DNA of 64,000 bases from Rhynchobatus australiae (taxonomy: Eukaryota): positions 84,719,738-84,783,737 of the forward strand of contig JAUZTB010000098.1 of the NCBI GenBank assembly GCA_034780895.1, read 5' to 3'. The notes below the pieces were generated by a model, which worked only from the letters and a program-made list of their open reading frames with translations, had not been told where the DNA came from and ran no database searches. The translations under genes were made by a program, and so were the position numbers. Numbering within the stretch: the stretch's first letter is position 1; each line of letters opens with the position of its first letter. Shown here one piece after another: positions 4,227 through 55,104 of the stretch.

Positions 4227-4316
4227 GCTCTGGATGGATTTGTGCTGTTGGTGAGTGCTGACGGAATGGTATTTTATGTGTCTCCCACAATCATTGACTA
4301 CCTGGGATTTCATCAG
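4227..4316 (+). CDS. AHRR: AHRR coding exon (PAS-A start; AHR exon-4 equivalent), [30 protein letters not shown]
   Basis: Acceptor tttctcag and donor CAG|gtaagg; 90 nt, phase 0/0. The peptide matches the PAS-A motif of AHR/AHRR (xLNGFxLVV...DYLGFHQ). Confidence 0.95.
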
Positions 4317-13813: not shown

Positions 13814-13949
13814 ACTGATGTGATGCACCAGAGCGTGTACGACTTCATCCATGTCGACGATCGACAGGAGTTCCAGAGGCAGCTACACTGGGCCATGAAT
13901 CCACTGCAGCAGGTGTCTGGGCAGGATCCTCCGGGGCAGGGAACTAACA
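13814..13949 (+). CDS. AHRR: AHRR coding exon (PAS-A), [45 protein letters not shown]
   Basis: Acceptor tctctgcag, donor A|gtgagt; 136 nt. TDVMHQ, HVDDRQ and LHWAM are AHRR-type residues rather than AHR-type. Confidence 0.95.
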
Positions 13950-17215: not shown

Positions 17216-17343
17216 GTGAAGAGTATCTGGGCTCTTTCAAAGCTTATGACCCAAAAGTTCTGCCACCGGAATTTTCTCCATTCCTGAACCGTTGTTTTGT
17301 CATCCGAGTGCGTTGTTTACTGGACAGCACTTCAGGATTCCTG
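17216..17343 (+). CDS. AHRR: AHRR coding exon, (S)[42 protein letters not shown]
   Basis: Acceptor ttttag, donor CTG|gtaggt; 128 nt restores phase 0. [13 protein letters not shown] is the AHRR form (AHR has RLRCLLDNSSGFL). Confidence 0.95.
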
Positions 17344-18892: not shown

Positions 18893-19095
18893 ACGATGCA
18901 GTTCCAAGGCAGACTAAAGTACCTCCAGGGACAGAGGAAGAAAGACAGGTCTGGTGCTGCCCTTCCACCACAGCTGGGCTTGTTTTGTATCGCTGTACCT
19001 CTGCTGCTCCCATCCATTGGTGAAATGAAGCTGAAGAGCCTGCTCCTCAAGACCAAGCACAAGCTTGATCTCAGCCCCATGACACTTGGTGCAAA
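18893..19095 (+). CDS. AHRR: AHRR coding exon (end of PAS-A, linker, start of PAS-B-like region), [14 protein letters not shown]...[30 protein letters not shown](K)
   Basis: Pyrimidine-rich acceptor ending caatag, donor AA|gtaagt; 203 nt; overlaps ORF 18896..19099. Confidence 0.95.
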
Positions 19096-22000
19096 GTAAG
19101 TAACAAAGTCCCAGTCATCTTGAAATGGCTGCCTGAAAGGGTGGTGGAGCTAGATTCATGAGTAAATTTCAAAAGGGCATTTGATATACATGAGAAAAGG
19201 AAAAGGTTTCAGGCTTTTGAACAAAATCAACAGAAGTGGGACTAATTGAATAGCTCTTCCAAAGAACTAATGCAAACCTTGTTAACCAAATGACCTGCTT
19301 CAGTGCGTTACAAATCAATGATTCTATGAAGTGGGGTTTAATTAATAAAGAAAGTATCTCAGAACAGAAATTGTGTTTACTGTTTGAGATCATTTAGGTC
19401 AATCTAATAGAAGTAGCTTGCAGACAAGCACACAATACAGGTAACCCTGTTGCATGAGTATATTTACTTACTAAGGATCTGCCACACTCATTTAACAAAG
19501 AAATAAGGCAACTATATTAATCTAAAAAAAACACTTGATTTTCATCTTTATATTTTACAAAAATATCCACAAGAAGGCTTAAGTTCACATGAATCTGGTG
19601 TGTAACTGTCAGTGTTGACTTGGGTCCGGTTGTATAGTGATCACATAACTAAACTAGTAATCTAGAGAACATGAATTTGCATTGCATTGGAGGATTTGAG
19701 TTTAGTTTGATAAAATCTGAGCTAAAAAGCTGATGACAGTAAAAGGTTTTAAGAATCAGGATGCCCAGATCTTGGGCTTTGGAATTCACTTTCAGATTGG
19801 AACAGAGGACCATAGATGAAAATGGTTGTGAGATGATAATTCACCAAGGTCATCAATGAAGCTTCGTGACTGCATATAAGGACCACATAAACAGTGATGG
19901 TCTTAATCTGAGGTCTGTTTCAGGGTTAGATAAAGTGCTACCCCTCTCCTTCTGCTGCTAGAGACTCTGATGTGTACTTGGAAGGTGTCCTCCATAACTT
20001 TCCTTTTTACTTATCATTCCCACCTCCTCCCACTCCCACCATCATCTGGCTGAACTACCTAGATGTCCATACCCCATTCTCTAGATAATCCTTCCTCCGA
20101 CCACTGCTGCAGTAACTCTTCCACGATGGTGGGTGATCACATAGGTTGGGCCTGTTCCGCTGTGTACAAGAGCCTTGGGCTTCTGCCTGTTGGACTTGTT
20201 TGGGTATCTTTACTCTAGATCAGAAATGTCCAACAGCTTGCTAATATCCTTTACAGAGTGTACCTGTTACCCACACCAGGTTTGAGGTATCCATATCTCT
20301 GGGGTCACAAACCATCGAGGTTTACTTTTAACTGTGGTGGCTTAGCAAACCATTTAATGATATCAAACTGCTGTTCAAAGAGCAAAGCAGTGGACAATTA
20401 ATGCTGGCCTGACCAGTGACCCCTGTGTAAGTAATAAATAATAAAAATATTTAAAACCCTATAATGGCCCTATTAATCATTCCATATTTATTAATATGAA
20501 TTGCATTTATCATAAGCCAGACTGTCATTTACTTCCTGTGCTTTAATTTCTTTGTGGTGTTGGTTTTTCTTGACCTGTGGGTCTTGTTAAGTGCATAGGA
20601 ATGAAGCTCAAAACTAAGCACAGTGAAATCACCTTTGCTGATCCCAGCTTTTTATTTTCAGATTTTTTTAAAAGTAACTTTAAATTCTCAAAAGGCCATG
20701 TTGGAATTTAAACAATGAACCAAGCCTCTGAACCACTAGCTCAGTAATATAAACACAACAGTATCTGTACTGTATATTGGTAACATTTCTCTGGATGTAG
20801 CAATCAGAAATGGAATGAACACAATAGTTATGATTGCTTTGCTTAGAGATTGGAGTTCACTCTCAGTGTGTGTAGTGCTATTGCCCACTTGAATGTACTG
20901 AAAGCATTGGACAAAATTACTTTAAAGGTTGCACACTGATTCATGGGCTCATAGCCATCACATCACTGCTGTGCTGGACTCTGAGAAGGTGGTCAGACCT
21001 TAAAGAGCCTCTCTGCATGGCAGCCTCAGAACCACTGAGGAAAAGGCTGCCAGAGAGATGAAGGAAAACACAGGCAGATGGAAACAGACAGCATGTAATC
21101 CAATCCACTGATTTGGTCTTATGCAACGAGAGGCCTCACATCACTGCGAGGTTCCAGGCCAGTCTGACGGACATTGCAGCAAACTGCACTGAGGTGCACG
21201 ACCTGAAACTGCCACGGTTACCACAGAGACACGCTGATCCTCCTGGATATGAGCAATGAAAATTTAGGTTGTGGAAGCTGTGAATTAACTGGGAATCATT
21301 TCATTCTCATCTCATTATTGGTCTGCATCAGAGTTTGTTCCCTTTAGTGTAATTGATAAGCAAAACTGTAGGTTGTATCCTTATGCACCAATTTAATTCG
21401 GTAAGCACAGAAATGGCTGCTGTACAAAACTCTGTCCTGAAGCTGCATGACAGCCACTGGGCAAATGTTAGCCACTGAGAGGGAATCGTGCAGAGCAGTG
21501 CCAGGGCCAATTTCCCAATGAGAGCTAATTGACCTGGAAATGATTGCTACTGGGAACTAATGAGAACAAAAGGGCAATGATGCACACAACTTGCACAGAA
21601 GAAACATACACAGATTGCTCCAATTTTGAGGCTGTGGTGTTGCTGCTACTGCCACACCTCCTCCTTCTCCTCCCAGCATCCCACCCTCTCCCCTACCTTC
21701 GCTGATCTCAGATACCAGCAAAACAAGTCGTTAACATTGGAAGTTGTCCTTCAAGGATTCAGCAAGGGTTGGGGGGCATCAGCTGGCTCCCAGAACAATT
21801 AAGGTATCACCTTCACCTCACTCTCTTGAATCCCCACCCCTGACCTATCCTCACATTACCTCATCCCATTCTCCCCCACAGAAACATCTGGGACTGAATC
21901 ATGACCTGGTTCAAGTGTAAAGTGCTGCATCTCACAGGTTATGGAAAACTGGGTTGTGGGGAGTGGGAGGTGGGAAGAGCAGATAATATGATATTGGATA

Positions 22001-24270
22001 AGAGTATCAAGAGATTTGTTACCTGTTGAACATCTCTATCCCTGCTTTCTGAAGGACTCCTGCTTCTTCCTGGCTTTTCCTGCTTAAATGTGATTTATTG
22101 GCCAGTGGCTGAATATTCACTGAAGAGATAAATTCATTTTGTTAAAATTGTGACAGGCAAAACCAAAGTCAGCAGTTTTTTGGCAAGTACAAAAATCACC
22201 TTGCCTGTACACAGGTGATGCCAAGGTCAGTGTTTCAAGCCTTGTCTACTTTCCTTCAGTCCCTTGTCTCTAATTCCAAGTTCCTCACCTTTCCTCCCCA
22301 TATCGAAATATTTCAAAGGAACATTTTCACCAAACAAATGTACAAAGATCAACATCACCATCTGCTGTTGACAACTGGAACTCCACAAGTATTAAACTTG
22401 TAGCAAAAATGAAAAACTACAAAACCCAACAATTATTCTGCTTGGAGATGATTTTTACACCTTTCTTATGGACAACACAATCTTAAGTAAAGTGGTGCCA
22501 CCTCAATTTTGTCCTTGGTTCTATTCATTTTATTTCCTGCTAAACTTGATTCATTGTTTATACCAAACTAAAGCGGTTGGAAATCTGAAATGAAAAGACA
22601 AAATACTGAGCAGGCCTGGCAACATCTGTAGAGAGGAGAAAATGTAAGGTCCTTGCTTCTGACACAACAATGATTTTCATTCCACTGCCAATGGCTTCAG
22701 TGCCTTCAACTGCCGAGGGCCCTAAACTCTGGTATTCCATCTGTAGACCACTCCTCATTTCCAGTTCTCTTTTCTGCTTTAAGATGCTCTCTGAAACCTT
22801 TTTCTTTCACAAAACTTATGCTCATCTCCCCTAATATTTCATTCATTTGCTCAGTGTCAAATTTTGTTTGTTGATTCTTCTCTCATCTGCCTGTAGACCT
22901 GTACAGAACGCACTTTTAATTTTATGTCAGGGTACCTAAGCATATCACAATAACATCTACTTTATAGTTGTGATTTATGTTTTTAAATTGAGTTAAGTGT
23001 GCTGGGTAAATTCAGGTGTTTAAGTCTTTAAGACAGAGTTTAATGTTGTGTGGCATCTCACAGTACATCCAGTGAACTTTTAGCAGAAGTTCATTGTTCA
23101 TGTTGTGAGCCTGACCTTCCAGAGTACCTTTCACAAAAGTTAGGGCTCTGTAGAAGCTGTACACAAGGGAAGATGAAATGACTGAAATGAAATTGGAATG
23201 TCTGAATCTCATGGAGAGTCCAGAGCCAGAGGAATTGATTCCTTATCATCTGGAGCTAAAGATCTCCTTGAGGCAGTATTTTTCTGGTGGTTTTGGTCAG
23301 TGGAACTGCTGCACCTGTTCACCCAGGGCAAACACCCACAATACTTCTACCTAAAACGTGCTAATAGTATTCATCTTGGAAGGTCTGCATCCATGACTTT
23401 GGACAGTCAGGACCCCAAATCACCCTTTTTGTATAATAGAGAAAGTGTCCCAGAACCCAGCCCCAGACTGCAAATTTCTTCAGTTTCCAGCCTTCTCTAC
23501 CATTCAGTTCAATCACAGTTGAGCANNNNNNNNNATCCATCTACCTGCCATGGTACTGAGACCTTTAATGGTCTTCCCTTGCTAAAAACTATTAACCTCA
23601 CCTTTAAATTTTTAAATAACATAGCCCAACAGTTTTTTTTGTGGGAGACAGCTGTAGATTTTCATTATTGTTTGTGCAAAGTATTGTGTCATGACTTCCA
23701 ATTTTAAGGATAAGCCTGCTTATTCTGAACTTCTTAACAAAAGAAATGGTTTCTGTCAACTCTGTCAAATCGTCTTCAACATCTCAAATTACTTCACCCT
23801 TTGTAACCTCTTCTTATAATTAGAGCTTGATTTTTTTTTGCTATTTTTTATTTAAGGTTCTGTTTGGGGGATTTCTTTTTTTATCATGGTAAATTGGGTA
23901 TTTTCAATTATTGAAAAAGTTCATATATTAAGATGCTTCAATTTATAATTTCTGTATAACACAACTAAATTGAAATTGGTTATAGTAACAATTACAGGCC
24001 AGTCCAGGCTTTACCTCAATATCACAAAATCATAATTTTCTTCCATGTCGTTGTACATAGCTTTCGGGTTTTGCCCCATTTCCACTCATGCTTCTTTCAT
24101 CACCATCCTGTCCACAGACAAATAGGACTGGTCAGTATGAGCATTTTTGAAAGGCATGTATGGTCTTTATAAAGCAAAATGAAAGACAGTGTGAATTATG
24201 TATATTTCATATTTATTCATGACACAGTGATTAATTGGTGAAAATAAAATTGATTTTTGAGATTTGATTT

Positions 24271-24390
24271 TCGTGTCCGCGTGGGTTTCCTCCGGGTGCT
24301 CTAGTTTCCTCCCACATTCCAAAGATGGGTTTAAATGGGTGGTGCAGACTCGGGCCAGAAGGGCCTATTACCACGCTGTAAATAAAATGT
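24271..24390 (+). mobile_element. 5'-truncated V-SINE with a CR1/HER1-like tail
   Basis: V-domain cgtgtccgcgtgggtttcctccgggtgctctagtttcctcccacattccaaaga, then gggccagaagggcctattaccacgctgtaaataaa. Confidence 0.75.
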
Positions 24391-24577
24391 TAAAAAATTT
24401 AATTTAATCTCAGTGATGCTTTCTTTCAGCTTTTATATGTTAAAATTTAAAAAAAAATTCAAGCCCCACTTCAGCTACTGAGGTTTGGTGCTCAGAACTG
24501 AACATGCAGCCAAATCCAGTCAAGGAAGAGAATTACATAACTCGAAAGTAACTTGTATCCCTTTGTTATGTACCTAG

Positions 24578-24684
24578 GGGCAAAGCAATTGCAGGATGGT
24601 CAGACACAGAGCACCGAACAAGATCAGGTTGCCATTACCTCCACTTTACGGATGTGCTGTGCCGTGCAGAGAATCAAATCCGAA
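24578..24684 (+). CDS. AHRR: AHRR coding exon (PAS-B-like), GKAIAGWSDTEHRTRSGCHYLHFTDVLCRAENQIR
   Basis: Acceptor tacctag, donor A|gtaagt; 107 nt with phases 2/1, which fits both neighbours. Aligns to AHR [36 protein letters not shown]. Confidence 0.88.
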
Positions 24685-24973
24685 GTAAGTTTGTCCTAAA
24701 CCTCCCTGGCTCTCTCCTCCTAAAACCTGCCTCTTTGATCAAGCTTTTGGACACTATCTCCTGAGGCACCTTGTTGAAATATTTTTATGATGATCACTCC
24801 AGTGAAGCATCTTGGATGTCATACTACTTTAAAAGTGCTGTGTCAGTGGTCGTCAGGTAGATTCTCTGCTCTGCACTCCACGGAGCAAACATTTTCGTAT
24901 GCAGTTATGTACAGGAATCCTGAATGGAGCGACACGGATCATGTTTGTTTCAAAAATGTTCATGTTCCCACAG

Positions 24974-25115
24974 GGATGAACACTGGAGAAAATGGCCTCA
25001 CGGTCTTCAGAGTGCTCACTAAAGAAGGTCAGTGGGTTTGGTTCCAAACTAATGGCCATCTTCCCCATAGGAACAAATCTGCGGAATTTGCCACAGTGCC
25101 TCAAGAGGAACTCAA
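24974..25115 (+). CDS. AHRR: AHRR coding exon (PAS-B-like C-terminal half), (R)MNTGENGLTVFRVLTKEGQWVWFQTNGHLPHRNKSAEFATVPQEEL(K)
   Basis: Acceptor ttcccacag, donor AA|gtaagt; 142 nt. Gap-free alignment to AHR [46 protein letters not shown]. Confidence 0.92.
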
Positions 25116-26154
25116 GTAAGTTAGTTATTTATAAATAGTATTTCTTTTGGAATTGTTCCTCAGTTATAATATCTCTCAGACTCCATGTTGTGTTTGAACA
25201 AGTAAGTAAAACCATTAAAAGAAGTTAAAAAAGGGCACAAACTTTCTTCATATCTGATGATTTATTTCCTAAATCACTTGCAGCAGTACTCTGAGGATTT
25301 ATCTTTAATTCTTGGGAAATCTAGGGTTTTTGCCCAATTGTTTCTAGATGTACTCTAATCTGCAGTTAGTTGTAGCTTCTCAAATCTGTCTGTATTTTAC
25401 CTGGATCTCCATTTTTGAATCCCTCCAATCAAATTTCCTCCATTGTCACAGTATTGAAACAGCTCTATTCAAAGGTGATTGTGATAAAGGTAGCCTTCTC
25501 AACCAGTTTGAGGCCTTTGACACGGTTGACCACACCTTCTGCCTCCAATACCTCAGCACCATTTTACACCTTGATAGGACTACATTTTTATCTATCCAGT
25601 CAAAGTCAGTGAATCACCAGCAATGGCTTCTCATACGATCACGCCAATGGGCTGAAGGGCCTGTTTCCATGCTGTACGATTTAAGACTTTATGCTCCTTA
25701 AGACCTATCTTTCTGGTCAAGCTTCAGGCCAAGTGCCTTAAATCTCCTTATGTGGTTCAGCAGCAGTATTTTTCATAATGCCTCTGTGATCACCCTGGGA
25801 CATGTTTGTTCTATTAAGGGTGTTGTCATCATTGTTTTAACCCTACTCTACCTGAAGTAATGAGATGCTGCTGACTTAATTATTTACTTGTATGTTCTTG
25901 TATCGACAAGTTGTGAAATAATAAGCCCAACAATTTCTAGTCCTAAAATATGTCACGTGTAAGACACTGAAACAAGCAACGCTGAAGCTGACATTATTGA
26001 AAGTGGTTAATGGTTGTGGCTACTTTGACTACTGTTAGTGAATGCTTATTTTAAAAGCAAATATTTAAAGTGTTGGGGAACTGTACGGGAAAACTGGTTA
26101 ATAGCAAGCAGCATGTTGTCTACATGTTATATTCATGGTTCTGATTTCCCACAG

Positions 26155-27385
26155 GGACACAGAGAGATCCAAGGAAGAGCATCTGAGGAACCAGTCAAAC
26201 ACTGACCAGTCAAGCAGCACCAATGGATTTATGTACAGCAACTGCAGTGATATATCTTTGCAATTAAAACAACTGTATGACGAGGCCCCAACAAAAGAAG
26301 GAAGAGAAGAGAAATATGAGCCTGTTAGAAATGATGGTGGTGTCAACCTGAACGAGCCCCTCAATTTTAGCACATCATTTCCCAGACCTGCAAAAGTTTC
26401 CATTGCAGATGACTTATGGGTATCAGAGTACAGCAGAGGCCCATCGAATCCACAGCCCCTGAGGCCACTGGGCAGAACGAATAATGATCCTGCTCGAGTG
26501 GCTAAAGGCTTCTGTGGCAGAAGTAGACTGCTATCTGAGCCGCAGCTCAGGGATAACACACAGACCTCCAGCTTTCAAAACATAGTCCAGAACTTCCGGG
26601 CTGTCGGAGAAAAAGTGCAGCAAAGCCAACTGTTCAACCTGCACTCTAGCAACCTGGAGAGCTACCCAGCTGAAAGCTGCAAATCGGAAGGTGTTACGGC
26701 AATGTGCAATCCCATTAGTCAAAGGTCAAGGGATCTTCCCGCGGAGTACTGTAACAGCGCAGACATGTTCCAGGGGGTGCAAATCAAAAGCGAGTACAAT
26801 GTGGAACTGCACAATGGGCTAGGTGGGCCCTTGGAATCTCCGAGTCATCTCTGGGTTGACAGCGAAATGGGAAAAAAGATGGTGGCAAGCTTTCCAGGAC
26901 AGCAGCAATTAAAGTGCGATCCCAATACACTGGAGCAGGTGTCACCCTGTGAGAAACTGAAGGCTCTCCTGCCAACTCCATTCTGTGGAGCCAGCACAGC
27001 TAAGGGCAATGGCGTGTGGATGGTGGGCAGTGCTTGCAACCACAGTAGGCCTTCAAAGCAAGGAATGGACATGGCTCACTTCAATTCACAGAGAGCCACC
27101 CATTCCCATTGCTCTCACAGTGATCAACCCACAGGCTGTTTGCAAGCACATGCCTTTCCCCGCCATACTATCCAGGATAAGTGTCCAGGTCAGGTGGAAT
27201 ATAAAGTACCTCTGCAGTTCAAAGGTCATGATCTAGTCCATACAGTCATCAAACGAGAGCCCTCACCCTCTCCTCCTTGGTCTTGTGATAATCTGCACAA
27301 CATACAGGCAGGCTTACAGAAAAATATGCCCAGTTGTTTGATCAATTCATTGACTCATAAGATTACACAAAATGCATATTTGTAA
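26155..27385 (+). CDS. AHRR: AHRR terminal coding exon (C-terminal repression region), ending ...KITQNAYL*
   Basis: Acceptor tttcccacag in frame with the 416-aa ORF 26135..27385. Contains IKSE, LKCDP and IKREPSPSPPW, which correspond to AHRR SUMO motifs. No Q-rich transactivation domain. The seven exons sum to 2037 nt (679 codons including stop). Confidence 0.92.
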
Positions 27386-36699: not shown

Positions 36700-37200
36700 A
36701 GGTGAATTGTTGGCGCAGAGACATTACTTCGTCCTACGAGGCCCGGAAATGATTGCAAGGGGCGGGCGTTATCGCCGAGCGTTCTGGGACTTGCAGTTCA
36801 GCGGTGCGAACTACACTGCCCGGCAGGCTCAGCAACTTCCGGAAGGGCAGGTGTCGGTCGGTCGGTCGGTTGGCGTGGCGGGGGTCCGCGCGCGGTCCCG
36901 GTCAGTGAACGTTCCATTCCGTTATTGTTTCCCGCCGCGCGCGGTCACGCGCAGCGCCCGGTGTCCTGCAGCTCCGGCCGGGCGAGCGGCTCCGGGACTG
37001 GGGGCTGGAACCTGCGGCCTGGCCGTGCCGCTCGGGAAGGCACGGCCAGGGAGACCGAGGAGACCCTCCGCAGGGACGGGCAGTCGGTGTCACGGCAGCC
37101 TCGGGCTCTGGTGGGAGGACAGCCCCGCGGTTTGACAGCAGAGTCCTGCCGGTCGGCAGTTAGTTTCGGTGTCGTCTCTGGCTACATCTGCTGCCTGCAG
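36700..37200. promoter_or_regulatory. CpG-island housekeeping promoter of EXOC3
   Basis: The only strongly CpG-rich non-repeat stretch in the window. Contains ETS site CCGGAAAT 36743-36750, GC-box GGGGCGGG 36759-36766, two oppositely oriented ZNF143/THAP11-type ACTACAnnTCCCA-like motifs (36782-36799 on -, 36808-36828 on +) and an overlapping ETS palindrome ACTTCCGGAAG 36835-36845. Confidence 0.85.
36850..36900 (+). other. EXOC3: Putative non-coding first exon of EXOC3
   Basis: Lies just downstream of the promoter motifs, with a donor-like CCG|gtcagt at 36900/36901. The TSS position is inferred, not observed. Confidence 0.5.
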
Positions 37201-38489
37201 TTGAAGGCTCTCGGAGCCTATGTTGTTGCTGTGCATTGTTGCAGTCTCACAACCTTCAGTACTCAGCAGTGTGTATCAATGCAGCCTTTGGCACTGGGGT
37301 GGATTACAGTTCCAATGATAACCGCTGCATGCCATTGCAGTTTTGGTGTCTGACGCTGTTTTATCATCGCTATTCCACATTATCAGAATTTTGCGCATCC
37401 TTGTCAAGTATTACTATGCGGGACTCATGATGTATAGTATCCACAGTTGTGTTAGAATGCTACATGTTGTTTTGGTATTGGGATGTTATGCTCCCCATTG
37501 CAGTGCATTGTATTTTTGTACACTTTGTCCTTGTTATTTGCATGGGATAGGAACACAGACCTCCAGTGGTTACCACTCAGGACTTGACTTGTGTGTGGAA
37601 GTATTAACGTGACCTCTCCACATTCCTAAATCATAGTTCTGTAAACTATAAGATTACTGTGATGGGAGGGAGGGGTCTTGCTGAAATTCTCCTTTGTTTC
37701 CATAGCAATCTTCATCTTAATGACATCTGCATATTGGAGGCTTCTCAAATTCCACAGATCCAACTCATAACGGTTACACATTGTTGCTGCCCTTTAGTTT
37801 TTGAGGTTTGCAATTGCTTTGCCTGAAGCTGGCAAGAATGGGAGGATTTCCAGGCATTGCATGTGTCACTTGGAGCTCAGTGCTGCTTCTGCTCCATGTC
37901 ATTATGCCCTGATTAGGGAGAGGCTGGTTACACGGTCCTTTTCCTGGAAAGTCTCTGGCAGAAGTCCTCCAATTAAACAGATGCCATAGGGAGGACTCTG
38001 GATGATTACGCAGTGTTTACCGACACTCCCAATATTGCATGACTATGTGGATCCACGGAGTGCAGATCAACAAATAACAAGGACTGGGTTTATTGCTGTT
38101 TCATGAGGGATACTGTATCATCAGAATGGAGAAGGCATTCTTAAAAGGTATTTTGGAAACTTAATGCCATCTGACCAGGTAGACATGGCCGTGGTTTAAT
38201 ATCTGTCTCGGAATGTCTCGCCTCCAGAAATACACTCCCTAAGGGGGAAATTCAAATGTCAGGCACGTTTATCTGTTCAAGCTCTACATCAGGGATTGAA
38301 CTTATGACTTTCAGAACTGAAAATATTATCACCGAACCAAGCTTGTTCTTGGTTATAATATCCTGAACTATGCTACCCTTAACTTACCCTGCAGTATTCT
38401 ATTTACATTTTCTTATTCTAATTGCTTGACGATGGTCAGACATTTAAAAAGTGTAGAGCAGCTGGTTCTTGGAGTGTATGATCACTGTT

Positions 38490-39030
38490 TCCTGTTATTT
38501 CGTCACGTGTACTGAGACACAGTGAACCTTTGTTTTCTGCCATCCAGGCAGATCATGCCATACACAAGTTCATTGAGGTAGTAAAAAGCAAACAGAATGC
38601 AGAATGTAGTGTTGCAGCTCCAGAGAGAGTGCATTGCAGGTAAACAAATAAAGTGTAATGGCTGTGACAAGGTAGATTGGGTGATCAAGAATTTATCTCT
38701 AGCATATGGGAGGTTCATTCAAGAGTCTGATAACAGTGGGATAAAAGCTGTCCTTGAGTTTGGTGGTATGTGCTTTTAGGTTTGTGTATCTTCTGCCCAA
38801 TGGGAGAGGGGTGCAGAGGGATTGACTGGGGTGAGAAGGATCCTTGATTATGTTGGCTGTAGGAAGTGTGGGCGGAGTCAATGGAGGGAAGGCTGATTTG
38901 TGTGATGGATTGGATTGCATTCACCACTCTGCAAATTCCTGTGGACTTGGGCAGAGCAGTTGCCATGCTACTCTGATGCATCTGAACATATATTCTTCTG
39001 TAAAAATTGGTAAAAGTCAGTAGGGACATG
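38490..39030 (-). mobile_element. Rex1-type LINE 3' fragment
   Basis: IIKDPSHPSQSLCTPLPLGRRYTNLKAHTTKLKDSFYPTVIRLLN, followed by a tail ending ...cactgtgtctcagtacacgtgacgaaataa. Confidence 0.85.
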
Positions 39031-40029: not shown

Positions 40030-41675
40030 TCAAAGTCAAGTTTATTGTCATATACACAAGTACATGCATGCACAGGTGCAATGAGAAACATACTTGCAGC
40101 AGCATCACAGGCACATAGCATCAGAAAAAGCAGCATTCACAAGAAAAACATAAACATAAGTTATACACAATTTTTACAAGAAAAAAACACAATTAGAACA
40201 AAATAAAACCAAAGTCCATTTTAGTGCAAAGTGATCAGAATGGTCTTGGTGTTGTTCAAGTGTTGCTAAACTGTAATGGTGATTAGAATTTTGCTGGTTG
40301 GTTCAAGAACCGAATGGTTGAAGGGGAGTAGCTGTTCTTGAACCTGGTGGTGTGAGACTTCAGGCATCTGTACCTCCTTCCCGATGGTAGCTGTGAAAAG
40401 AAGGCATGGCCTAGATGGTGGGGATCTTTGATGATGAATGCTGCCTTCTTGAGACAGTGCCTCCTGTAAATACTACCAGTGGTGGAGAAGGATGTGCCTA
40501 TGATGTATTGGGCAGACTCCACTACTCTCTGCAGCTTCTTGTGTTACTGCACATTCGAATTGCCATACCAGACCACGATGCAACCAATCAGGATACTTTC
40601 AACAGTACATCTGTAGAAGTTTGTTAGGGTGTTCAATGACAAGCCGATTCTCCTTAACTTCCTAAGAAAGCAAAGACGCTGGTGCGCTTTCCTTGTGATT
40701 GCAGCAATGTGCTGAGCCCAGGACAGGTCATCTGATATGTTAACGCCCAGGAATTTAAAGCTGCTGACTCTGTCCAACGCTGATCCCCCAATGTAGACTG
40801 GTGCATGTTCACCCTCCTTCCCCTTCCTGAAGTCAACAATCAGCTCTTTAGTTTAGCTGATGTTGAGGGAGAGGTTGTTGTTGCAGCACCATTCAACCAG
40901 GTGACCTATCTCACTCCAGTAAGCCAACTCATCACCACCTGTGATTTGTCCAACAACAGTAGTGTCGTCAGTGAATCTGAAGATGACATTGGAGCTGTGC
41001 TTAGCCACACAGTCATGTGTGTATACACAGTAGCGCAAGGGGGCTAAGCACAAAGCAGCCATGAGGTGCACCTGTGTTGATGGTCAGTGAGGAGGAAATG
41101 TTGTTACAAATCCTCATTGATTGAGGTCTGCTGATAAGGAAGTTAAGCATCCATTTTCAGAGGGAAGTACAGAGGCCCAGGACTTGAAGTTTGATGATGA
41201 GTTTGAATGGGATAATTGTGTTGAACACCGAGCTATAGTTGAACAGCAGCCTGATGTCGAGTTCCTGTTGTCCAGATGGTCCACAGCAGAGTGAAGAGCC
41301 AGAGAAATCACATCTGCTGTTGACCTGTTGTGATGGTAGGCAGAGTGAAGCTTATCCAGGACATTTCTGAGGCAGAAGTTGCTGCACACTATAACCAACC
41401 TCTCAAAGGACTTCATTACAGTTGAGGTAAGCGCTACCAGACAATAGTCATTGAGGCAGGTCACCACACCCTTCTGCCTTTTTGAAGCAGGTGTGAACCT
41501 CAGACCACAGAAGTGAGAGGTTGAATATGTCTGTAAATACTCCAGCCAGTTGGTCCACACACATCTTTAATATTCAGCCAGGTAGGCTCTCTGGACTAGA
41601 CGCCTTTTGTGGATTCACCCTCTTGAAGGATGCCCGGACGTCGGCCTCAGAGACTGAGATTACAGGGTCATCTGG
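40030..41675 (-). mobile_element. 5'-truncated Rex1/Babar-type LINE with decayed RT
   Basis: ORF fragments [33 protein letters not shown] (RT FADD motif), FKFLGVNISDDLSW, LTNFYRCTVESIL and LPSGRRYRCLKSHTTRFKNS; 3' tail ends in aataaac-ttgact. Confidence 0.9.
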
Positions 41676-41775
41676 NNNNNNNNNNNNNNNNNNNNNNNNN
41701 NNNNNNNNNNNNNNNNNNNNNNNNNNNNNNNNNNNNNNNNNNNNNNNNNNNNNNNNNNNNNNNNNNNNNNNNNNN

Positions 41776-42115
41776 GCACATTCGAATTGCCATACCAGAC
41801 CACGATGCAACCAATCAGGATACTTTCAACAGTACATCTGTAGAAGTTTGTTGGAGTGTTCGGTGACAAGCCGAGCCTCTTTAACCTCCTAAGAAAGTAA
41901 AGACACTGGCGTGCTTTCCTTTTGATTGCATCTATGTGCCAGGCCCAGGACAAGTCATCTGATGTGTTGATACCCAGGAATATAAAGCTGCTGACTCTCC
42001 ATTGCTGATTTCCCCCAATGTAGACTGGTGTATGTTCACCCTCCTCCTCCTCCATGAAGTCAACAATCAGCTCTTTAGTTTTGCTGATGTTGAGTGAGAT
42101 GTTGCTGCTGCAGAA
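41776..42115 (-). mobile_element. Second Rex1-type LINE fragment
   Basis: Homologous but not identical to 40548-40890 (FIFLGINTSDDLSW, TNFYRCTVESIL). Confidence 0.85.
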
Positions 42116-44820: not shown

Positions 44821-46228
44821 CCAGTAGATGACTTTCCACAATTGAACAAGCATTCTTTTGTTTCATATTTCCCACAACTGATGTGTTCTGTCTCTCATGG
44901 TTCCAACATGTTCTTCTGCTTTATTTTTCCTCTCTCTGTCCTCGTATCTCTGACTAGGTAGCTCCAAAATCATTGTGTCCTCCCAGACAACCTTGGTCTC
45001 CACCCTATCATAGACGTTAACTCCATTTCTTTTTCTATAGATGCTGTGTAATCTGCTGAATATCTCCAGCATTTTTTTGTTATTTGGGAATTTAAGGAAT
45101 ATAAACAGGCATAAGCTGTACCCTCCAGCCAACTCTACCATTCAATAACATGGCTAATACTCTGTTTTGTCTGCTTTTGTAACCAATCCCTATACCTTCT
45201 GATTTTCTTAGGAGAGATGTAATCATGTATAAAATTAAAACCTAATTCTATCCAGAGCCCACAAAATTTCCATTCGTGGTCTAAACCAATTATTGTTGGA
45301 AATATATCTATGTCAAGTATGTTCCACAAATGCTGTAATGCCAAGCAAATCATCTTGACTTGAATGAAGTTCCAAGGCAGCCTGGAATGGTATGGCCCAG
45401 CCTGAATGTCATAACAGAATAAACACCTGACTTGACCTCAACCTGACACACATGGTTGGGTTCCTTTGGACTTGGCAGCATCCCTGCTGTCTCCAAAAAT
45501 TTGGTGAAGTCAATCTTGAATAAACTGAGATAGAATTCATGAAGGCACTTCAGCTGGTGTAAGCATCCTATTGATGATGCTCTTTAAATCTCTTTGATTC
45601 CTCCTTTGTGCTTGGCAAGATTGCAGAGGGTGTTGTGTGAAAGTGAAAATGTCCTCTGCTTATGAACTTGCTTTGTAGGGAAGTATTGTCTTGAAGTTGG
45701 CATTTGGGGAGGATGAGAAATTTAGAGGGTTCTTTCCAATCACTGATTTGCCTGCCTGAAAAGAGTTATTGACACTGAGTAGGAGCAGGTTGTCTGTTGT
45801 AGGTTTGGTGACTGTGTGTATATTCCTTCAGCTAGATGCCTGATACGTGCAGAAACCATCACTTTGACTCCTATTTCATGTTACCCACTTTTACTTTGAA
45901 ACAAAATACACACCCTCTTTTCCCCCCAAATGGTCACATAACACTTTTCCCACATGGACAGCCCTGTTACTACTTACTATCACAAGTAGTCTACCTTGCT
46001 TTTTCAAGTTGGCTTGTTGGGTATCAGTGCAAATGACAGGTCTACCTGTTGGTGCCTAGTCAACTGGGCAATCATCAAAAGCTTCCTTTTCATTGTGAGA
46101 TATGCAACAATCAAAAAATTAAATGAAATGGCATGAAATAACTGAAAATATTAGAATGGGTAAAACGTAATTTGACTTAAATAAATATCCCAAAGGACTT
46201 AAATGCTCTTGCAGTAGACGTTGTGAAC

Positions 46229-46372
46229 ATGGAAGAAACTGATAGGGAAGCTGTGTCGACAGCTGCACAACGAGTGGCTGGAATGCTTCAACGACCTGAC
46301 CAACTGGACAAAGTGGAGCAGTATCGCAGGCGAGAAGCTCGGAAGAAGGCCTCTGTGGAAGCCAGGCTAAAG
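46229..46372 (+). CDS. EXOC3: EXOC3 (Sec6) first coding exon, [48 protein letters not shown]
   Basis: ATG in good Kozak context (aacATGg); tandem cagtag acceptor at 46212-46217; donor AAG|gtatgt. Near-identical to the vertebrate EXOC3 N-terminus. Confidence 0.97.
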
Positions 46373-47254
46373 GTATGTACACCAAATGAAGAGGAAACAT
46401 CCATTTGCATATAACTCAAAAAAAAATCCTCCAATGTATCTTTTGTATTGCTGTGTAGACAGCAATTTTACTAATAACTAGTCAATTTCCTGTGTCAAAT
46501 TTGGCTACTTGAAGACTTATCTTCCACTGCAGGGGCAACATTGACTGAAAGCAATAAGTCCAGGCCTTCAGTACAGATATTTCTTAAAGCTATTCCAATA
46601 TTGTAACAGATTGGATTTCTTCTTTTCTTGCCTTGTTTTTAACATTTTGTTTAAGTAATAAATATATTTTCTAATTTTAATTAAGTTATAAATGATGCAA
46701 ACTCCTTCCACTTAAAAGATACTTTAGGAGGATAAAGTTTAAATATTTCAGTAATTGTTCTACAGAAGGATTTGCAGTCTTAATTAGATAGGAACATTTT
46801 CAATGACAATTGCATAGTGAAAGTTGCCATTTTTATGCATCTATTTACAATACAAACTAACTATGTTGAAGATAATTAATCTAAATTTTAAATAATCTTC
46901 ATTTTGAGGTCTGTATCTTTTCAATGCTGCATCATTGATATTTAATGCATCCATGATCAAGAACTTGCTTAGCCCTAAATTGCATGTGGTAGAAGTTATA
47001 ATGTGGAAACGGAATGTTTCTGCTAATATACATGTATCAGCTGTGGCTCTGCAAATGAACAGAGAAAAATGCTTCAGAGTAGAATTGTCTATGGTTTTAA
47101 GCTTTGAAGTGTATATGTTCAAAATTTAAACCACAGCCATGCACAGAAAATAGGAGCTCTCATGTGGTTTTCAAATCTGTGGTTTCCAAAATATGTTAAA
47201 TAGTATGTCTACCATATCAGTCATGGGAATATCGCATTGTTCAGAAACTGGACT

Positions 47255-47645
47255 TATTGGTATTGGTTTATTATGTCACTTGTACCAAGGTACAGTGAAA
47301 AACTTGTCTTGCATACCATTCAAACAGATCAGTTCATTGCATGGTGCATTGAAGTAGTACAGGGTAAAACCAATAACAGAATACAGAGTAAAGTGTAACA
47401 GCTACACGGAAGTGCATTGCAAGTAGACAATAACGTGCAAGGTCAGAACAAGGTAGATTGAGTTCAAGAGTCCATCTCATCATATAAGGGAATCGTTCAA
47501 TAGTCTTTTCACAGTGGGATAGAAGTTGTCCTTGAGCCTGGTGGTATATGGCCTCAGGCTCCTGTGTCTTCTGCCTGATGGAAGAGGGGAGAAGAGAAAA
47601 TGACAAGGGTGGGTGGGGTCTTTGATTATGTTGGCTGCTTCAAGT
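47255..47645 (-). mobile_element. Rex1-type LINE 3' fragment
   Basis: AANIIKDPTHPCHFLFSPLPSGRRHRSLRPYTTRLKDNFYPTVKRLLN plus tail. Confidence 0.85.
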
Positions 47646-47731
47646 TTTGAATTTTTTTCCCAGGAGCTTCTGAAATTAGTTTTGTTTCTGTCATGCAGTC
47701 TTGCATACATTTCTTTATAATTGTCTTTCAG

Positions 47732-47951
47732 GCAGCAATCCAGTCCCAGTTGGATGGAGTACGGACGGGGCTCAGTCAGCTTCACAATGCTTTGAATGAT
47801 GTTAAGGACATTCAACATTCCTTGGCAGATGTCAGTAAGGACTGGAGACAGAGCATTAATACTATAGAGAACCTGAAGGATGTGAAAGATGCTGTGGTTC
47901 AGCATAGCCAGTTGGCAGCTGCTGTCGAAAACCTGAAAAACATTTTCTCGG
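47732..47951 (+). CDS. EXOC3: EXOC3 coding exon 2, [21 protein letters not shown]...ENLKNIFS
   Basis: Acceptor tctttcag, donor G|gtaatt; 220 nt. Confidence 0.97.
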
Positions 47952-50198
47952 GTAATTCCTATCATTCGGATTTTTGCTAATGATGGTTCTCGAATGATAG
48001 TTCAGGTGAAAAGGCAGATGGGGGTTGGCAGTGGAATAGTTTCAGGGTGAAAGCACCTTGGGTTGTAAGTTTGACAGTGAACAATTTTATCAAACTGAAT
48101 TATATTTCTCAAATGACATTCATGATGTCAATATGTTTTAAACACTATATGGCAAATGAAATAGTTTTGAAGTATAGTCACTATTGTAATCCCAGCAGCC
48201 AATTTACAAGTACCAATACAATGAAAATCAATTTTAGTGACATTGGCTGAGGGATAAATGTTGGCCAAGACACAGGCCAATTAATCTCAAATGAAATGCC
48301 TCTGACAACTTAGAATTTCCTTGGTATACTTCTGGAGTGTCTGCTTAGATTTTTTGTGCTTAACCCTGGAGTGGGACTTGAACTTTCTAACTTGATTAGA
48401 CTGTTGCAGGTGAGTCCCAGCTGACACTCACAAATGTAGGTGCAGGAATTTTTAATTACTTCATGTATTTATAGCTTTATACAACTTTAAAATGGCAATT
48501 GGTTAACCCATACAATTGAACCACACATGATATAAAAGCCTTAGAAATGCTGTGTTCAATGTCTCAGAGTATTAATTAGTAATAACAAAGTACAAAATCT
48601 AAACAGTGTCAAAATATTGTTACGATGAGTACCAATGGGTGAATATGATTCACTGGTTAATAAACAATATTTAGGAACAAGTAATTATTGGAAAATAGCG
48701 TAAGATGCATTTTCCACATTTAACTGGGGAAGACTGTGACCTAATTAGAATCACTGAAAGAAAAGTTTTTTTGCACTCTTGCTACTGTAAGGCAGCAATT
48801 ATTTTCCCACAGTTTTTTGCATTGCTATGCCTTCTGAGAGTCACTTCAAGGATGAATTCTTAAGCATATTTATCTTAAAATGTAATGTAGTAATTCTGTA
48901 CTCAACAAACATCAGAAGTCCATCAGGTCTTTGTAGTTGAACTTTGGAGCCGTTCAGGTTTTTTTCTGCATATAGTACATCATCAGAGAATTACTTCACA
49001 CAAAAAGAGGGTATTTGGCCCATCCTTTTGAAAGGGCCCAAATAATCCCAGTTACCCACAGGTCTTTTCCCTAGGTAAATATTCAGATCCATTTAATCAA
49101 TTACTATTGAATTTGTTTCCATGAGCCTTCCATGAATCAAGTAATTCCAGATTATTATTAATTTTTGTATAAAAATTGTTTCCTTTTCCATTGTGGTCTT
49201 GTACCTTAAATGTAGGAACTTTAGTTATGTCATAAAAACATTCTTTAAAAAAAAAAGGAGCAGTAGTGTCTGTTTGGCCCCTTGGGAAAGCTCCACCATT
49301 CAACACAATCGTAGGCGATTCTCTGTTTTAACACAATATTCTCCTACCCCTAGATGCTTTTTGCATCTGGAAATCTATCTAATTCTTATACCTATTCAGT
49401 GACTTGGGCTCCACTGTGGTGGAGAATCTCATAGGTTCACCACCCAATGAGTGAAGAAGTTTCTCATTTCAGTGTTGAGTGCTTTGCCTGGTCTTTTGTG
49501 TCTGTGACCTCTCACTACAGAACCCCCAACCAAGGAAAACATGAACCTTGCATCCAGTTTGTTCAGCCTATCAGAATTTTGAATGTCTCAATGAGATCTG
49601 CACACATTCTTCTAAACTCTAGTGAATATAGGCCTAGTCAACCCATTCTGTCCTTGTACAACAGAACTACCATCCTAGGACTCAATGTGATGAACCTTTG
49701 ATGCACTCCCTTTGTAGCTGATGTTTCCTTTCCTAGGTAAGGAGACTATAATTACACATATTGCTCCAGGTATGGTCTCACCAGGACCCTGTATGATTAT
49801 AGCATTCCAAGGCCCCTCTGTTGTACAATGCTCCCTGGGGCCCTGCCATTCACCGTGGAAGTCCTATCTGGATTTGACTTTCCAAAATGCAACACCTCAC
49901 ATTTATCTAAATTAAACTGCAGATATTGCCCAAATTATTATTTTTTAAAATTTAACATCTTATAGACTCGCACTGCAGAACCAGTCCATTTGGTCAATTA
50001 GCTTCAGAGTTTTGCTTTAAAATGTCCATTCTTCAAATTGTGAGCTCTCTTAACTGTAGTAATCACAAATGTTGTAAACCACTTTGAAATTATGATCATT
50101 AATAGAAGATACTTTTGAACATTTAATAATGTTTTAAATCAATATTGTTGCTAATCCTGTGACAACACAACAGCTAATATTACTTATCTGGCTTTCAG

Positions 50199-50880
50199 TT
50201 CCAGAGATTGTGCAGGAGGCCTATGAACTAATTGAACGCGGAGAACTGCTTTTAGCCCACCGAAAGCTGATGGACCTAGAGTGCTCCCGTGATGATCTAA
50301 TGTATGAGCAATATCGTATGGATAGCAAGAATATGCATGATATGAAACTAATTCAGGCCTATTTCACTGAGGTGCAGAACCTCTCTGAGCAAATGGGCAA
50401 GCAGATTTGGATGCTGGTGCAAAGATCCTCAGTGACAGTCCGCAGTGATCCAGCCCAACTTGTCTCAATGATTCGAATCATTGAGAGAGAAGAAAAAATT
50501 GATAAGAAAATGCTTGACCGGCAGAAGCAGACTGGGTTCATTCCTCCTGGCAGACCAAAAGAGTGGAAAAACAAATTGTTTGCCGTTTTAGAACAGACTG
50601 TTGCGAATCGAATTGAAGCCAGTCAGTCTGATACACGAGAATTAGATAAAATGTGGCTTGTGCGTCACTTAGAGCTCACACGCAAATATGTTCTTGAGGA
50701 CTTGCTGGTCATGAAGAACTTGATGGTGCAGTGTTTTCCCCCTCACTACAACATCTTCAGAAGGCTTCAGAATTTGTATCACCAGGCTCTAGTGGCACGT
50801 GTGGAAGAACTTGCATCTGAGGATCTGGAGGCCAATGAAATTGTTTCACTTTTGACTTGGGTTCTAAATACGTATCAGAG
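50199..50880 (+). CDS. EXOC3: EXOC3 coding exon 3, VPEIVQE...LLTWVLNTYQ(S)
   Basis: Acceptor gctttcag, donor AG|gtgaga; 682 nt; inside ORF 50159..50884. Confidence 0.97.
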
Positions 50881-51662
50881 GTGAGAATTTGATTTAGCGG
50901 TATTTAACATCAAATCATATTTACAATACAGAAGGACACCGTTCAGTTCATCATGTTCATGCTGGCCAAAGGACATGGTCTATTTGGATGAATCTCACTT
51001 ACCACCTCTCCGTCAATAGTCTTGTAGGTTACACCACCTCAGCACATTCAGGTACCACTTAAATGTTTTGCAGTTTTCCATTCCACTCTTTAGGTAATTA
51101 ATTCCAGACCCCCTTCCCTTGCCCATCTCCCAACCGCTCTCTGCATTTAAAACAAAATGTCTTTCTCAGTTCTCATCTGTTTCTACCAATTAACTTTAAA
51201 TTTATGTCCTCTATCACTGAACTCTCTACTAAGGAGAATGGGTCCTTTCTGTCTCGGCCTTGCAGTATTATACACCTTGATTAAATCTCTCCTTGTGCAT
51301 TGTATAAGACCGTAACTTTTCTCTTGTAATTTATTCTAGTATGGCAAACTTCCGTTTTGGCCCACTTTATCAGAGAGTCAGCAAATTGCAGAAATAGGTA
51401 GCTAATAGGTGGGTGGAGGAGAGGAAAGTTAGGTGTGTTCCTATTAAACCAGAAAACCTACAGTGTGCTCTTTCAAAGACCAGTTTATCCTCCTTGAAGT
51501 GGTATGCTCAAAACTAATTGGAGTACTACAGATTCAATCTAAATTTGTACGATTGTCATAGTAAGCTGCTAACTTTTGTTAGCAATAGCTTGTTGAACTT
51601 TACCTTTGGTCTTAGTTGCTGACTTGAATTGTGTTTTGCATTTCGATATATTTTCTGTATAG

Positions 51663-51780
51663 TGAGGATATGATGGGACACCCAGATCTTGCTCCTGAAG
51701 TAGACGTGAAGACCCTGGAACCCTTACTTTCAAATGATGTGGCCAATATGCTTCTCAGCAAATACATGACAACTCTTACT
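51663..51780 (+). CDS. EXOC3: EXOC3 coding exon 4, EDMMGHPDLAPEVDVKTLEPLL...YMTTLT
   Basis: Acceptor tctgtatag, donor ACT|gtaagt; 118 nt. Confidence 0.96.
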
Positions 51781-53398: not shown

Positions 53399-53524
53399 TC
53401 TAATATTATTGGATGGCTACGGAAGGCACTTGAAACTGACAAGAAGGATTGGAAAAAAGAACAAGAGCCGGAAGCGGATCAGGATGGATACTATCAAACC
53501 ACACTGCCAGCTATTGTATTTCAG
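53399..53524 (+). CDS. EXOC3: EXOC3 coding exon 5, [42 protein letters not shown]
   Basis: Acceptor tcttatag, donor CAG|gtattt; 126 nt. Confidence 0.96.
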
Positions 53525-54785: not shown

Positions 54786-55003
54786 TGATGTGCTTGTACG
54801 AGCACAGGACAGGAAAGTATAAATGAATACTTTATACATGAAATTATAAATGAAAGGTATATATGGTCCTGCTATTCAGACTCGTACTTGCACAGGCCAG
54901 CAATTTCTTCATATTGGTAAATAGTTGTTTTGCTACTGATTTTTGGAGCCATAAAGTTTGGAAATGTGTAGAATGTTTGATATGCACTCATGTTCTGTTT
55001 TAG

Positions 55004-55104
55004 ATGTTTGAACAAAATCTACAGGTGGCTGCTCAAATCAGTGATGATCTGAAACTTAAGGTGCTAACATTGTGCCTTCAGCAAATGAACTCTTTCTTGA
55101 GCAG
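55004..55104 (+). CDS. EXOC3: EXOC3 coding exon 6, [33 protein letters not shown](R)
   Basis: Acceptor ctgttttag, donor AG|gtgagt; 101 nt. Confidence 0.96.

What the first reader, a model, noticed from the sequence alone, without database searches (positions are those of the whole stretch)
19040..25115. AHRR that retains a nearly colinear PAS-B (ligand-binding-type) domain
Seen: three in-frame exons encode [98 protein letters not shown]. This aligns to human AHR PAS-B (sequence recalled from memory) with a single 1-residue deletion. Established: characterised AHRRs are described as lacking PAS-B and not binding ligand. The gene is still AHRR by PAS-A signatures, SUMO motifs, lack of a Q-rich domain and EXOC3 synteny. 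By hand alignment, equivalents of H291, G321, F351, V381 and Q383 are kept, while F295L, L308A, L315H, Y322C, C333R and H337Q differ. Inference: this is an evolutionary intermediate between AHR and the PAS-B-less repressor. It may still fold, bind HSP90/AIP or ARNT PAS-B, or sense a different ligand.
Basis: partly seen in the sequence, partly recalled or inferred. Interest (0 to 1): 0.75.

Follow-up and report, generated by a model that had tools for sequence, protein, structure and literature searches.

The report
Ray dioxin-receptor repressor keeps eroded pocket
In a ray, the gene for the protein that switches off the dioxin receptor still carries the full-length ligand-binding domain that reviews describe as missing, but in a worn form that likely no longer binds dioxin-type ligands, and it marks the best-preserved end of a stepwise loss seen across vertebrates.

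Summary
Three canonical exons (18893-19095, 24578-24684, 24974-25115) encode a segment colinear with AHR PAS-B. Contigs from probable RNA runs of a relative join them. The gene is an AHRR orthologue (100/100 on bHLH+PAS-A).

- The one-residue 'deletion' is ancestral; invertebrate AHRs share it.
- Gln383 is not kept in most sharks, and Val381 is the low-affinity state.
- The segment is not unique. All 11 chondrichthyan AHRRs found carry it, sturgeon and coelacanth nearly as well, tetrapods partly, gar and teleosts not at all.

The domain breaks 8 of 22 near-invariant AHR PAS-B positions (reference AHRs 0-4) and 9 of 15 indirubin contacts. It lacks the XAP2/ARNT-binding C-terminal loop. It evolves 2.3 times faster than PAS-A but about half as fast as the tail. 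AlphaFold builds only its helical core and G/H hairpin; no AHR control fold was run.

Best reading: a ligand-blind, partly constrained remnant in an ordinary repressor. I found no paper describing the stepwise erosion, but key papers were unavailable. A ligand-gated repressor is not excluded (about 12%).

The parts
4227..4316 (+). AHRR exon equivalent to AHR exon 4 (start of PAS-A); the bHLH exons lie upstream of the window
   Evidence: tblastn with P0005; AG/GT ends and open frame
13814..13949 (+). AHRR exon 5 equivalent (PAS-A)
17216..17343 (+). AHRR exon 6 equivalent (PAS-A)
18893..19095 (+). Exon 7 equivalent: end of PAS-A, the linker that threads HSP90 in AHR (S276, I277 kept; I280M, R281K), and the first two PAS-B strands (F287L, H291 kept, F295L)
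   Evidence: joined to exon 8 in contig X3 record 16
24578..24684 (+). Exon 8 equivalent: PAS-B helical core (L308A, L315H, Y322C, C333R, H337Q; G321, H326, D329 kept; ancestral short loop without G319)
   Evidence: joined on both sides in contigs of a relative
24974..25115 (+). Exon 9 equivalent: conserved G/H hairpin (F351, W360, W362 kept; L353V) and an eroded last strand (I379A, I380T, T382P, R384E)
   Evidence: Pfam PAS_3 E=0.0023 on this exon alone; GT..AG joint 24684-24974 in X2
26155..27385 (+). Last coding exon: no AHR-type C-terminal loop, no Q-rich region, long repression-type tail, stop codon
26783..26794 (+). SUMO consensus site 1 (K601 in P0005 numbering)
   Evidence: lysine invariant in alignment A2
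26909..26920 (+). SUMO consensus site 2 (K643; psi-K-x-D form)
27248..27259 (+). SUMO consensus site 3 (K756)
   Evidence: I755, K756, E758 invariant in A2
50195..50881 (+). Exon of the downstream EXOC3/Sec6 gene (synteny marker; the AHRR-EXOC3 neighbourhood in other vertebrates is recalled)
   Evidence: Pfam Sec6 E=1.8e-45

Best explanation
This is the ray orthologue of AHRR, and its spliced-in PAS-B segment is likely a ligand-blind, partly folded remnant of the ancestral AHR pocket, so the protein would act as an ordinary ligand-independent repressor. Shown: orthology, splicing in a relative, colinearity, pocket and last-strand substitutions, loss of the C-terminal loop, three SUMO consensus sites, no Q-rich region, and an intermediate rate of change. 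Inferred: point changes on the AHRR stem disabled ligand gating before cartilaginous and bony fishes split. The protein would then pair with ARNT through bHLH and PAS-A, occupy XREs and recruit corepressors through its tail. Later lineages trimmed the redundant segment independently: exon 8 was shortened in mammals and squamates, and exons 8-9 were dropped in frame in gar and teleosts. The F-helix and G/H hairpin stay under moderate selection, most likely as a structural spacer or protein-contact surface rather than a pocket.
For: AHRR clade 100/100 on bHLH+PAS-A and 100/99 on PAS-B alone. 8 of 22 near-invariant PAS-B positions broken in the window and 6-8 in the other 11 chondrichthyan proteins, against 0-4 in 37 reference AHRs scored leave-one-out. 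9 of 15 indirubin contacts listed in PMC9668932 and 4 of 8 pocket-outline residues in PMC11791172 are changed, including F295 and L353. Arg at C333 and His at L315 put polar residues at pocket positions in batoids. No counterpart of F404/F406, and R398 aligns to Gln; these serve XAP2 binding and allosteric activation. PAS-B/PAS-A rate ratio 2.28 (1.64-3.59) against 0.67-0.89 in three AHR orthologue pairs; last strand as fast as the tail. AlphaFold with an AHR-rich alignment gives PAS-A 88-98 but PAS-B first-strand region under 55 (drawn as helix) and last strand 51-57. None of 62 named gar/teleost AHRRs scores above 2 bits, so the segment is dispensable for AHRRs. Deleting exons 8-9 makes human AHR nuclear and ligand-independent (PMC9203531).
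Against: The segment changes only 0.55 (0.37-0.65) times as fast as the tail and keeps its length almost unchanged across rays, sharks and a chimaera. 28 of 29 further chondrichthyan records carry both exons. Pfam PAS_11 scores of shark and chimaera AHRRs (27-39) approach that of a skate AHR (40.5). H291, P297, G321, H326, D329, F351 and most of the HSP90-lumen linker are kept. The core folds at pLDDT 74-85. No AHR was folded as a control, so the low-confidence strands may partly reflect the run. Two of the nine changed contacts (I349T, S365T) lie at positions that vary among AHRs. No binding or repression assay exists here.
Confidence: 0.62

Rival explanations
1. The PAS-B still folds completely but as a cavity-less interaction domain that contacts ARNT PAS-B, HSP90 or a corepressor and tunes repression.
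For: G/H hairpin rate 0.40 (0.21-0.56) of the tail. W360, W362, F351, D329 and H326 kept. The hairpin survives in newt, turtle, birds, platypus and dunnart. S276 and I277 of the HSP90 linker kept.
Against: Last strand has Pro at T382 and loses both buried aliphatics. AlphaFold does not complete the sheet. The loop that glues AHR PAS-B to ARNT PAS-B is absent. The HSP90-type linker is also kept in gar and teleost AHRRs that have no PAS-B, so it is not evidence of chaperone binding.
Confidence: 0.18
2. Chondrichthyan AHRR is a ligand-gated repressor: its PAS-B binds a different, more polar ligand and controls chaperone release or nuclear entry.
For: Full-length colinear domain with 6 of 15 indirubin contacts identical in the window. 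Sharks keep C333 (6 of 6) and mostly L315 (5 of 6). Y322C, H337Q and L353V are fixed in nearly all elasmobranchs, as a re-specified pocket would be.
Against: Pocket residues differ between rays, sharks and chimaera (Q/K/P at 383; R/H/C at 333; H291 lost in chimaera). The R398-D329 relay and C-terminal loop are missing. The rate is accelerated two- to threefold relative to PAS-A.
Confidence: 0.12
3. The segment is functionless and only looks conserved because cartilaginous fish genomes change slowly.
For: Between the window and P0005, 6 of 102 PAS-B residues differ against 19 of 400 in the tail and none in the PAS-A core. Gar and teleosts lost it altogether.
Against: Across nine chondrichthyans it changes at 0.55 of the tail rate and 0.37 of the linker rate, with intervals below 1. 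The hairpin persists in tetrapods.
Confidence: 0.07
4. The gene is an AHR paralogue (for example AHR3-like) mislabelled as AHRR.
For: It shares Trp at Y310, the short loop and the H-F-x-D motif with an AHR3-like clade; one database names an orthologue 'AHR-like'.
Against: Nested in AHRR with full support in three trees. Top structural match of PAS-A is human AHRR 5y7y. Three SUMO sites, EXOC3 neighbour. The AHR3-like clade is separate.
Confidence: 0.01

Closest known systems
Vertebrate AHRR (human AHRR, PDB 5Y7Y; killifish and zebrafish AHRR)
   Same: Same clade, bHLH+PAS-A, three SUMO consensus sites in the tail, no Q-rich region, EXOC3 neighbour.
   Different: Keeps a full-length PAS-B-like segment of about 102 residues. 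Placental AHRRs keep only an unscorable trace, and gar and teleost AHRRs lack about 84 residues there.
AHR / AHR1 / AHR2 PAS-B ligand-binding domain (PDB 7ZUB, 8QMO, 8XS6-8XSB)
   Same: Colinear, 40-43% identical, same exon frame (exons 8-9 = 83 codons against 84), H291, P297, G321, H326, D329, F351 kept.
   Different: 9 of 15 indirubin contacts changed, last strand eroded, no G319, no F404/F406 loop, R398 replaced, no Q-rich activation domain.
Sturgeon and coelacanth AHRR
   Same: Nearly colinear PAS-B remnants with a Pfam PAS_3 stretch; better-kept last strand and Y322.
   Different: Small deletions and heavier change in the first two strands; profile scores 82 and 75 against 85-111 in chondrichthyans.
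AHR3-like paralogue of sawshark, coelacanth, lungfish, paddlefish, gar and bichir (the name AHR3 is my recalled label)
   Same: Short loop without G319, Trp at Y310, H-F-x-D motif, no Q-rich tail in the two members measured.
   Different: Its PAS-B is intact (0-2 of 22 invariants broken) and it forms a separate clade; a sister relation to AHRR was not resolved.
Tumour AHR delta-exon-8-9 (PMC9203531)
   Same: Removes the same two exons that gar and teleost AHRRs appear to lack; the product is nuclear and ligand-independent.
   Different: It keeps the activation domain and activates; the ray gene still has both exons.

Membership tests
AHRR | Orthology of bHLH and PAS-A to named AHRRs | tested here: met
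   Clade 100/100 (using P0005; window placed beside it). The bHLH exons are outside the window.
AHRR | No Q-rich activation domain | tested here: met
   Highest Gln share in 40 residues 0.175 against 0.45 and 0.525 in two AHRs. AHR3-like proteins also lack it, so it is not specific.
AHRR | Three C-terminal SUMO consensus sites (their role in repression is recalled) | tested here: met
   K601, K643, K756; three matching sites in gorilla AHRR, none in two AHRs
AHRR | Position next to EXOC3 (synteny recalled) | tested here: met
   Sec6 exon downstream on the same strand
AHRR | Ligand-independent repression of AHR-ARNT at XREs | not testable with these tools
   Needs a reporter assay
Textbook 'PAS-B-less' repressor class | PAS-B sequence missing | tested here: not met
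   Full-length remnant present. Not filed under this class. Named AHRRs of sturgeon, coelacanth, newt, turtle and birds also fail it, so it does not define the AHRR clade.
Ligand-binding AHR PAS-B | Conserved pocket residues | tested here: not met
   4 of 8 pocket-outline and 9 of 15 indirubin-contact residues changed
[quoted passage not shown]
   No counterpart of the two Phe; Gln at R398; D329 kept; a Tyr near Y414 may be kept
Ligand-binding AHR PAS-B | Complete five-stranded PAS fold | tested here: inconclusive
   Core and G/H hairpin at pLDDT 74-85, outer strands 48-57; no AHR control; modelled on P0005, 6 residues different in PAS-B
Ligand-binding AHR PAS-B | HSP90-lumen linker (S276, I277, I280, R281) | tested here: inconclusive
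   Two identical, two conservative changes; also present in AHRRs without PAS-B
Ligand-binding AHR PAS-B | Binding of TCDD/FICZ and HSP90 | not testable with these tools
   Needs experiment

The most novel reading that the evidence does not exclude
Shark, ray and chimaera AHRRs keep a folded, chaperone-bound PAS-B with a re-specified pocket and are ligand-gated repressors: the surviving ancestral state from which the ligand-blind AHRR of other vertebrates arose by repeated, independent erosion.
Probability: 0.12. Interest if true: 0.85.

Novelty: new variant of a known kind. Interest (0 to 1): 0.43.

Why it matters
Reviews state that AHRR lacks PAS-B, a picture that fits the placental and teleost proteins. 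The comparison here shows that the ancestral jawed-vertebrate AHRR had a full-length PAS-B and that it was eroded separately in several lineages. So loss of ligand gating likely came by point changes before deletion. Living steps (chimaera, shark, ray, sturgeon, coelacanth, newt, bird, marsupial, gar) make the question of how a ligand sensor became its own repressor directly testable. If the shark domain still binds something, dioxin-pathway feedback in cartilaginous fishes would work differently from the standard model.

Tried and rejected
No whole genome is held for this window, so the upstream exons, promoter XREs and this animal's own AHR paralogues could not be read.

AlphaFold on the full 799-residue orthologue with an AHRR-only alignment failed, PAS-A included (mean pLDDT 32.8); it is not used as evidence. 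The fold searches were dominated by PAS-A; PAS-B was not modelled or searched alone.

No listed run is on record as RNA; runs X1-X3 are guesses from one study, and what counts is the joined contigs. No exon 7-10 skip appeared among the joints shown (33 were not shown), which is no evidence either way.

Of the read differences listed, those in PAS-B were 4 amino-acid-changing and 2 silent; too few for dN/dS.

A sister relation of AHRR to the AHR3-like clade was suggested by shared residues but not resolved in any tree.

Left out of the 37-row reference set: P0187 (apparent mis-splice), lamprey P0228/P0233 (deviant, 7 of 22 broken) and P0248 (0 of 22). One sawshark record (P0127, 364 aa) runs into unrelated sequence after exon 7; I treat it as a faulty model, untested.

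Earlier-findings searches returned nothing. No complex was predicted because no ARNT sequence was on hand.
Full report
Observation. The window holds seven coding exons of one gene on the + strand: 4227-4316, 13814-13949, 17216-17343, 18893-19095, 24578-24684, 24974-25115 and 26155-27385. All six internal exons have AG/GT ends, and together the seven give one open frame of 678 residues. The last exon finds 8 proteins among 1548 candidates, all elasmobranch; the best is a Pristis AHRR-like protein (P0005, 95% identical), so the animal is likely a ray. The frame differs from P0005 at 27 positions. Against solved human AHR chains the segment of the finding is colinear with PAS-B, one residue shorter at G319. 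Human numbers below come from that alignment, offset to match the residue names in PMC9668932. Contigs from probable RNA runs of a relative join 19095 to 24578 (X3, record 16) and 24684 to 24974 (X2, record 14, GT..AG); run X4 matches the genomic sequence with 0-1 other letters per listed piece and may be the window's own sample.

Identity of the gene. On 223 bHLH+PAS-A columns, 18 AHRRs form one clade (100/100), with chondrichthyans sister to bony vertebrates. On PAS-B alone the window again falls among AHRRs (100/99). The tail has three SUMO consensus sites and no Q-rich region, and an EXOC3 exon follows downstream. The PAS-A model matches human AHRR 5y7y best (Z 20.0, rmsd 2.0, 142 residues), tied within 1 Z with AHR PAS-A.

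How widespread. A search with bHLH+PAS-A alone listed the best 120 of 1669 relatives, unbiased for PAS-B. Against a rodent AHR PAS-B, chondrichthyan AHRRs score 73-98 bits and the window 78; none of 62 named gar and teleost AHRRs exceeds 2 bits. A profile from 92 intact AHR-type PAS-Bs gives: chondrichthyans 85-111, sturgeon 82, coelacanth 75, newt 52, turtles 47-52, bichir 45, birds 41-45, gharial 43, tuatara 40, frogs 38, dunnart 34, platypus 24, two lizards 20-23, and no PAS-B hit in two placentals, gar or two teleosts. The training set scores 137-194, which is in-sample. Gar lacks about 84 residues relative to sturgeon at this place, and dunnart lacks 15 relative to coelacanth. That size matches exons 8-9 (83 codons here; 84 residues in human AHR per PMC9203531, passages). 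True exon loss in gar is inferred from proteins. 28 of 29 further chondrichthyan records carry the whole segment; the other begins in the last exon. The feature is therefore real, shared by all chondrichthyan AHRRs examined except one doubtful record (P0127), and one end of a gradient.

The missing residue is absent in 13 of 13 invertebrate-type AHRs and 6 of 6 AHR3-like proteins and present in 18 of 18 AHR/AHR1/AHR2 proteins, so it is an insertion in those AHRs. Position 381 is Ala in 17 of 18 vertebrate AHRs. PMC11791172 and PMC8042735 (passages) describe Val as the weaker-binding state, though the latter found little effect in human cells. Gln383 is kept in 4 of 4 batoid representatives but is Lys in 5 of 6 sharks and Pro in the chimaera, which has also lost His291. 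Arg or His at C333 and His at L315 are batoid changes; sharks keep Cys (6 of 6) and mostly Leu (5 of 6).

Is it a working pocket? Of 22 positions at least 90% fixed in 37 reference AHRs, the window breaks 8 (F287L, D301G, L308A, Y322C, H337Q, R368H, P376A, R384E). Other chondrichthyans break 6-8, sturgeon 8, coelacanth 12, and the references 0-4 when left out one at a time. Of 15 indirubin contacts in PMC9668932 (passages), 6 are identical (H291, P297, G321, F351, V381, Q383) and 9 changed; two of these (I349T, S365T) are at variable positions. Of 8 pocket-outline residues in PMC11791172, 4 are changed, including the two with high computed binding energy (human F295, L353). The last strand loses both aliphatic residues and gains a proline. 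The C-terminal loop that binds XAP2 in the cytosol and ARNT PAS-B in the nucleus has no F404/F406 counterpart, and R398 aligns to Gln, while H326 and D329 remain. The HSP90-lumen linker is largely kept, but so it is in AHRRs with no PAS-B.

Selection. On a fixed tree of nine chondrichthyans, tree lengths were PAS-A 0.63, PAS-B 1.36, tail 2.55 and linkers 3.62. PAS-B/tail is 0.55 (0.37-0.65) and PAS-B/PAS-A 2.28 (1.64-3.59), from 60 resamples. The G/H hairpin is slow (0.99) and the last strand fast (3.23). In three AHR orthologue pairs PAS-B is slower than PAS-A (0.67-0.89). So constraint is relaxed but not gone. Against this, the window and P0005 differ at 6 of 102 PAS-B residues and 19 of 400 tail residues. 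These are protein rates, not dN/dS.

Structure. An AHRR-only fold failed outright. With 138 rows dominated by AHRs, P0005 residues 113-400 gave PAS-A blocks of 88-98, the PAS-B helical core and G/H hairpin 74-85, the first-strand region 48-54 drawn as a helix, and the last strand 51-57. An AHR-rich alignment should favour the PAS fold, so the incomplete sheet counts mildly against an intact domain. No AHR control was folded.

Mechanism. Most likely (0.62) the AHRR ancestor lost ligand gating through pocket, strand and loop substitutions while keeping the exons. The ray protein would pair with ARNT through bHLH and PAS-A and repress at XREs like other AHRRs (PMC12808330, section 12 and passages; PMC4057711, passages). 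That disabling PAS-B frees an AHR-type protein from ligand control is shown for human AHR lacking exons 8-9. Rivals: a folded cavity-less contact domain (0.18), a ligand-gated repressor (0.12), a functionless slow-decaying stretch (0.07), a mislabelled AHR (0.01).

What is known. PMC12076877 says AHRR lacks PAS-B (passage); PMC8671103 says it misses part of PAS-B and, elsewhere, PAS-B (passages). The bioRxiv phylogeny 10.1101/2022.07.13.499904 includes cartilaginous fish AHRRs; its passages on AHRR and PAS do not mention PAS-B retention (supplements closed). PMC13747243, PMC8708342 and PMC3899389 (passages) add nothing on it. Ten searches listed no paper on PAS-B remnants in shark or ray AHRR. 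Hahn 2017, Sakurai 2017 and the journal version of the phylogeny were not held, and the non-mammalian cloning papers were not seen, so earlier mention of partial remnants is quite possible. The PAS_3/PAS_11 hits are already in precomputed annotation of these public proteins.

Verdict. Real and spliced; a new variant of a known kind; most likely an eroded, ligand-blind domain. Its interest lies in the graded, repeated loss across vertebrates and in the small chance of a ligand-gated repressor. Interest 0.43.

Noticed in passing
proteins P0129, P0149, P0150, P0174, P0184, P0188: A separate AHR paralogue with intact PAS-B in coelacanth, paddlefish, sawshark, lungfish, bichir and gar (100/99 on bHLH+PAS-A); no Q-rich tail in the two measured. 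It shares Trp at Y310, the short loop and H-F-x-D with chondrichthyan AHRR. Probably AHR3 (label recalled).
   Followed up: partly
AHR position G319: A one-residue insertion marks AHR, AHR1, AHR2 and a lamprey AHR but not AHRR, the AHR3-like clade or invertebrates. Carriers form a weak clade (80/80), which sits badly with a published tree grouping AHRR with AHR2.
   Followed up: partly
proteins P0228, P0233: A sea lamprey gene called AHRR-like in some records has a full-length but deviant PAS-B (7 of 22 invariants broken), no SUMO consensus sites and an unresolved long-branch position; not shown to be an AHRR.
   Followed up: partly
gar and teleost AHRRs, e.g. P0016, P0017: They lack about 82-86 residues matching exons 8-9, the same in-frame pair deleted in AHR of about 10% of metastatic urinary tract cancers.
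   Followed up: partly
window 36700-37400 and 46200-58500, + strand: GC-rich stretch, likely the EXOC3 promoter, followed by EXOC3-like exons; one exon confirmed as Sec6.
   Followed up: partly
window 62000-63400, - strand: Broken frames that look like LTR-retrotransposon integrase and protease/RNase H pieces; label by eye.
   Followed up: no
window 40300-42100 and 38700-38900, - strand: Broken frames that look like LINE reverse-transcriptase ends, partly duplicated; label by eye.
   Followed up: no
window 24270-24400, 25645-25680, 22585-22840: Short high-copy repeats inside the AHRR introns; very high contig depth in all four runs.
   Followed up: no
window 10211 and 27010: Two XRE-like T-N-GCGTG cores inside the gene (intron 4 and the last exon); no more than chance would plausibly give, not tested.
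   Followed up: no
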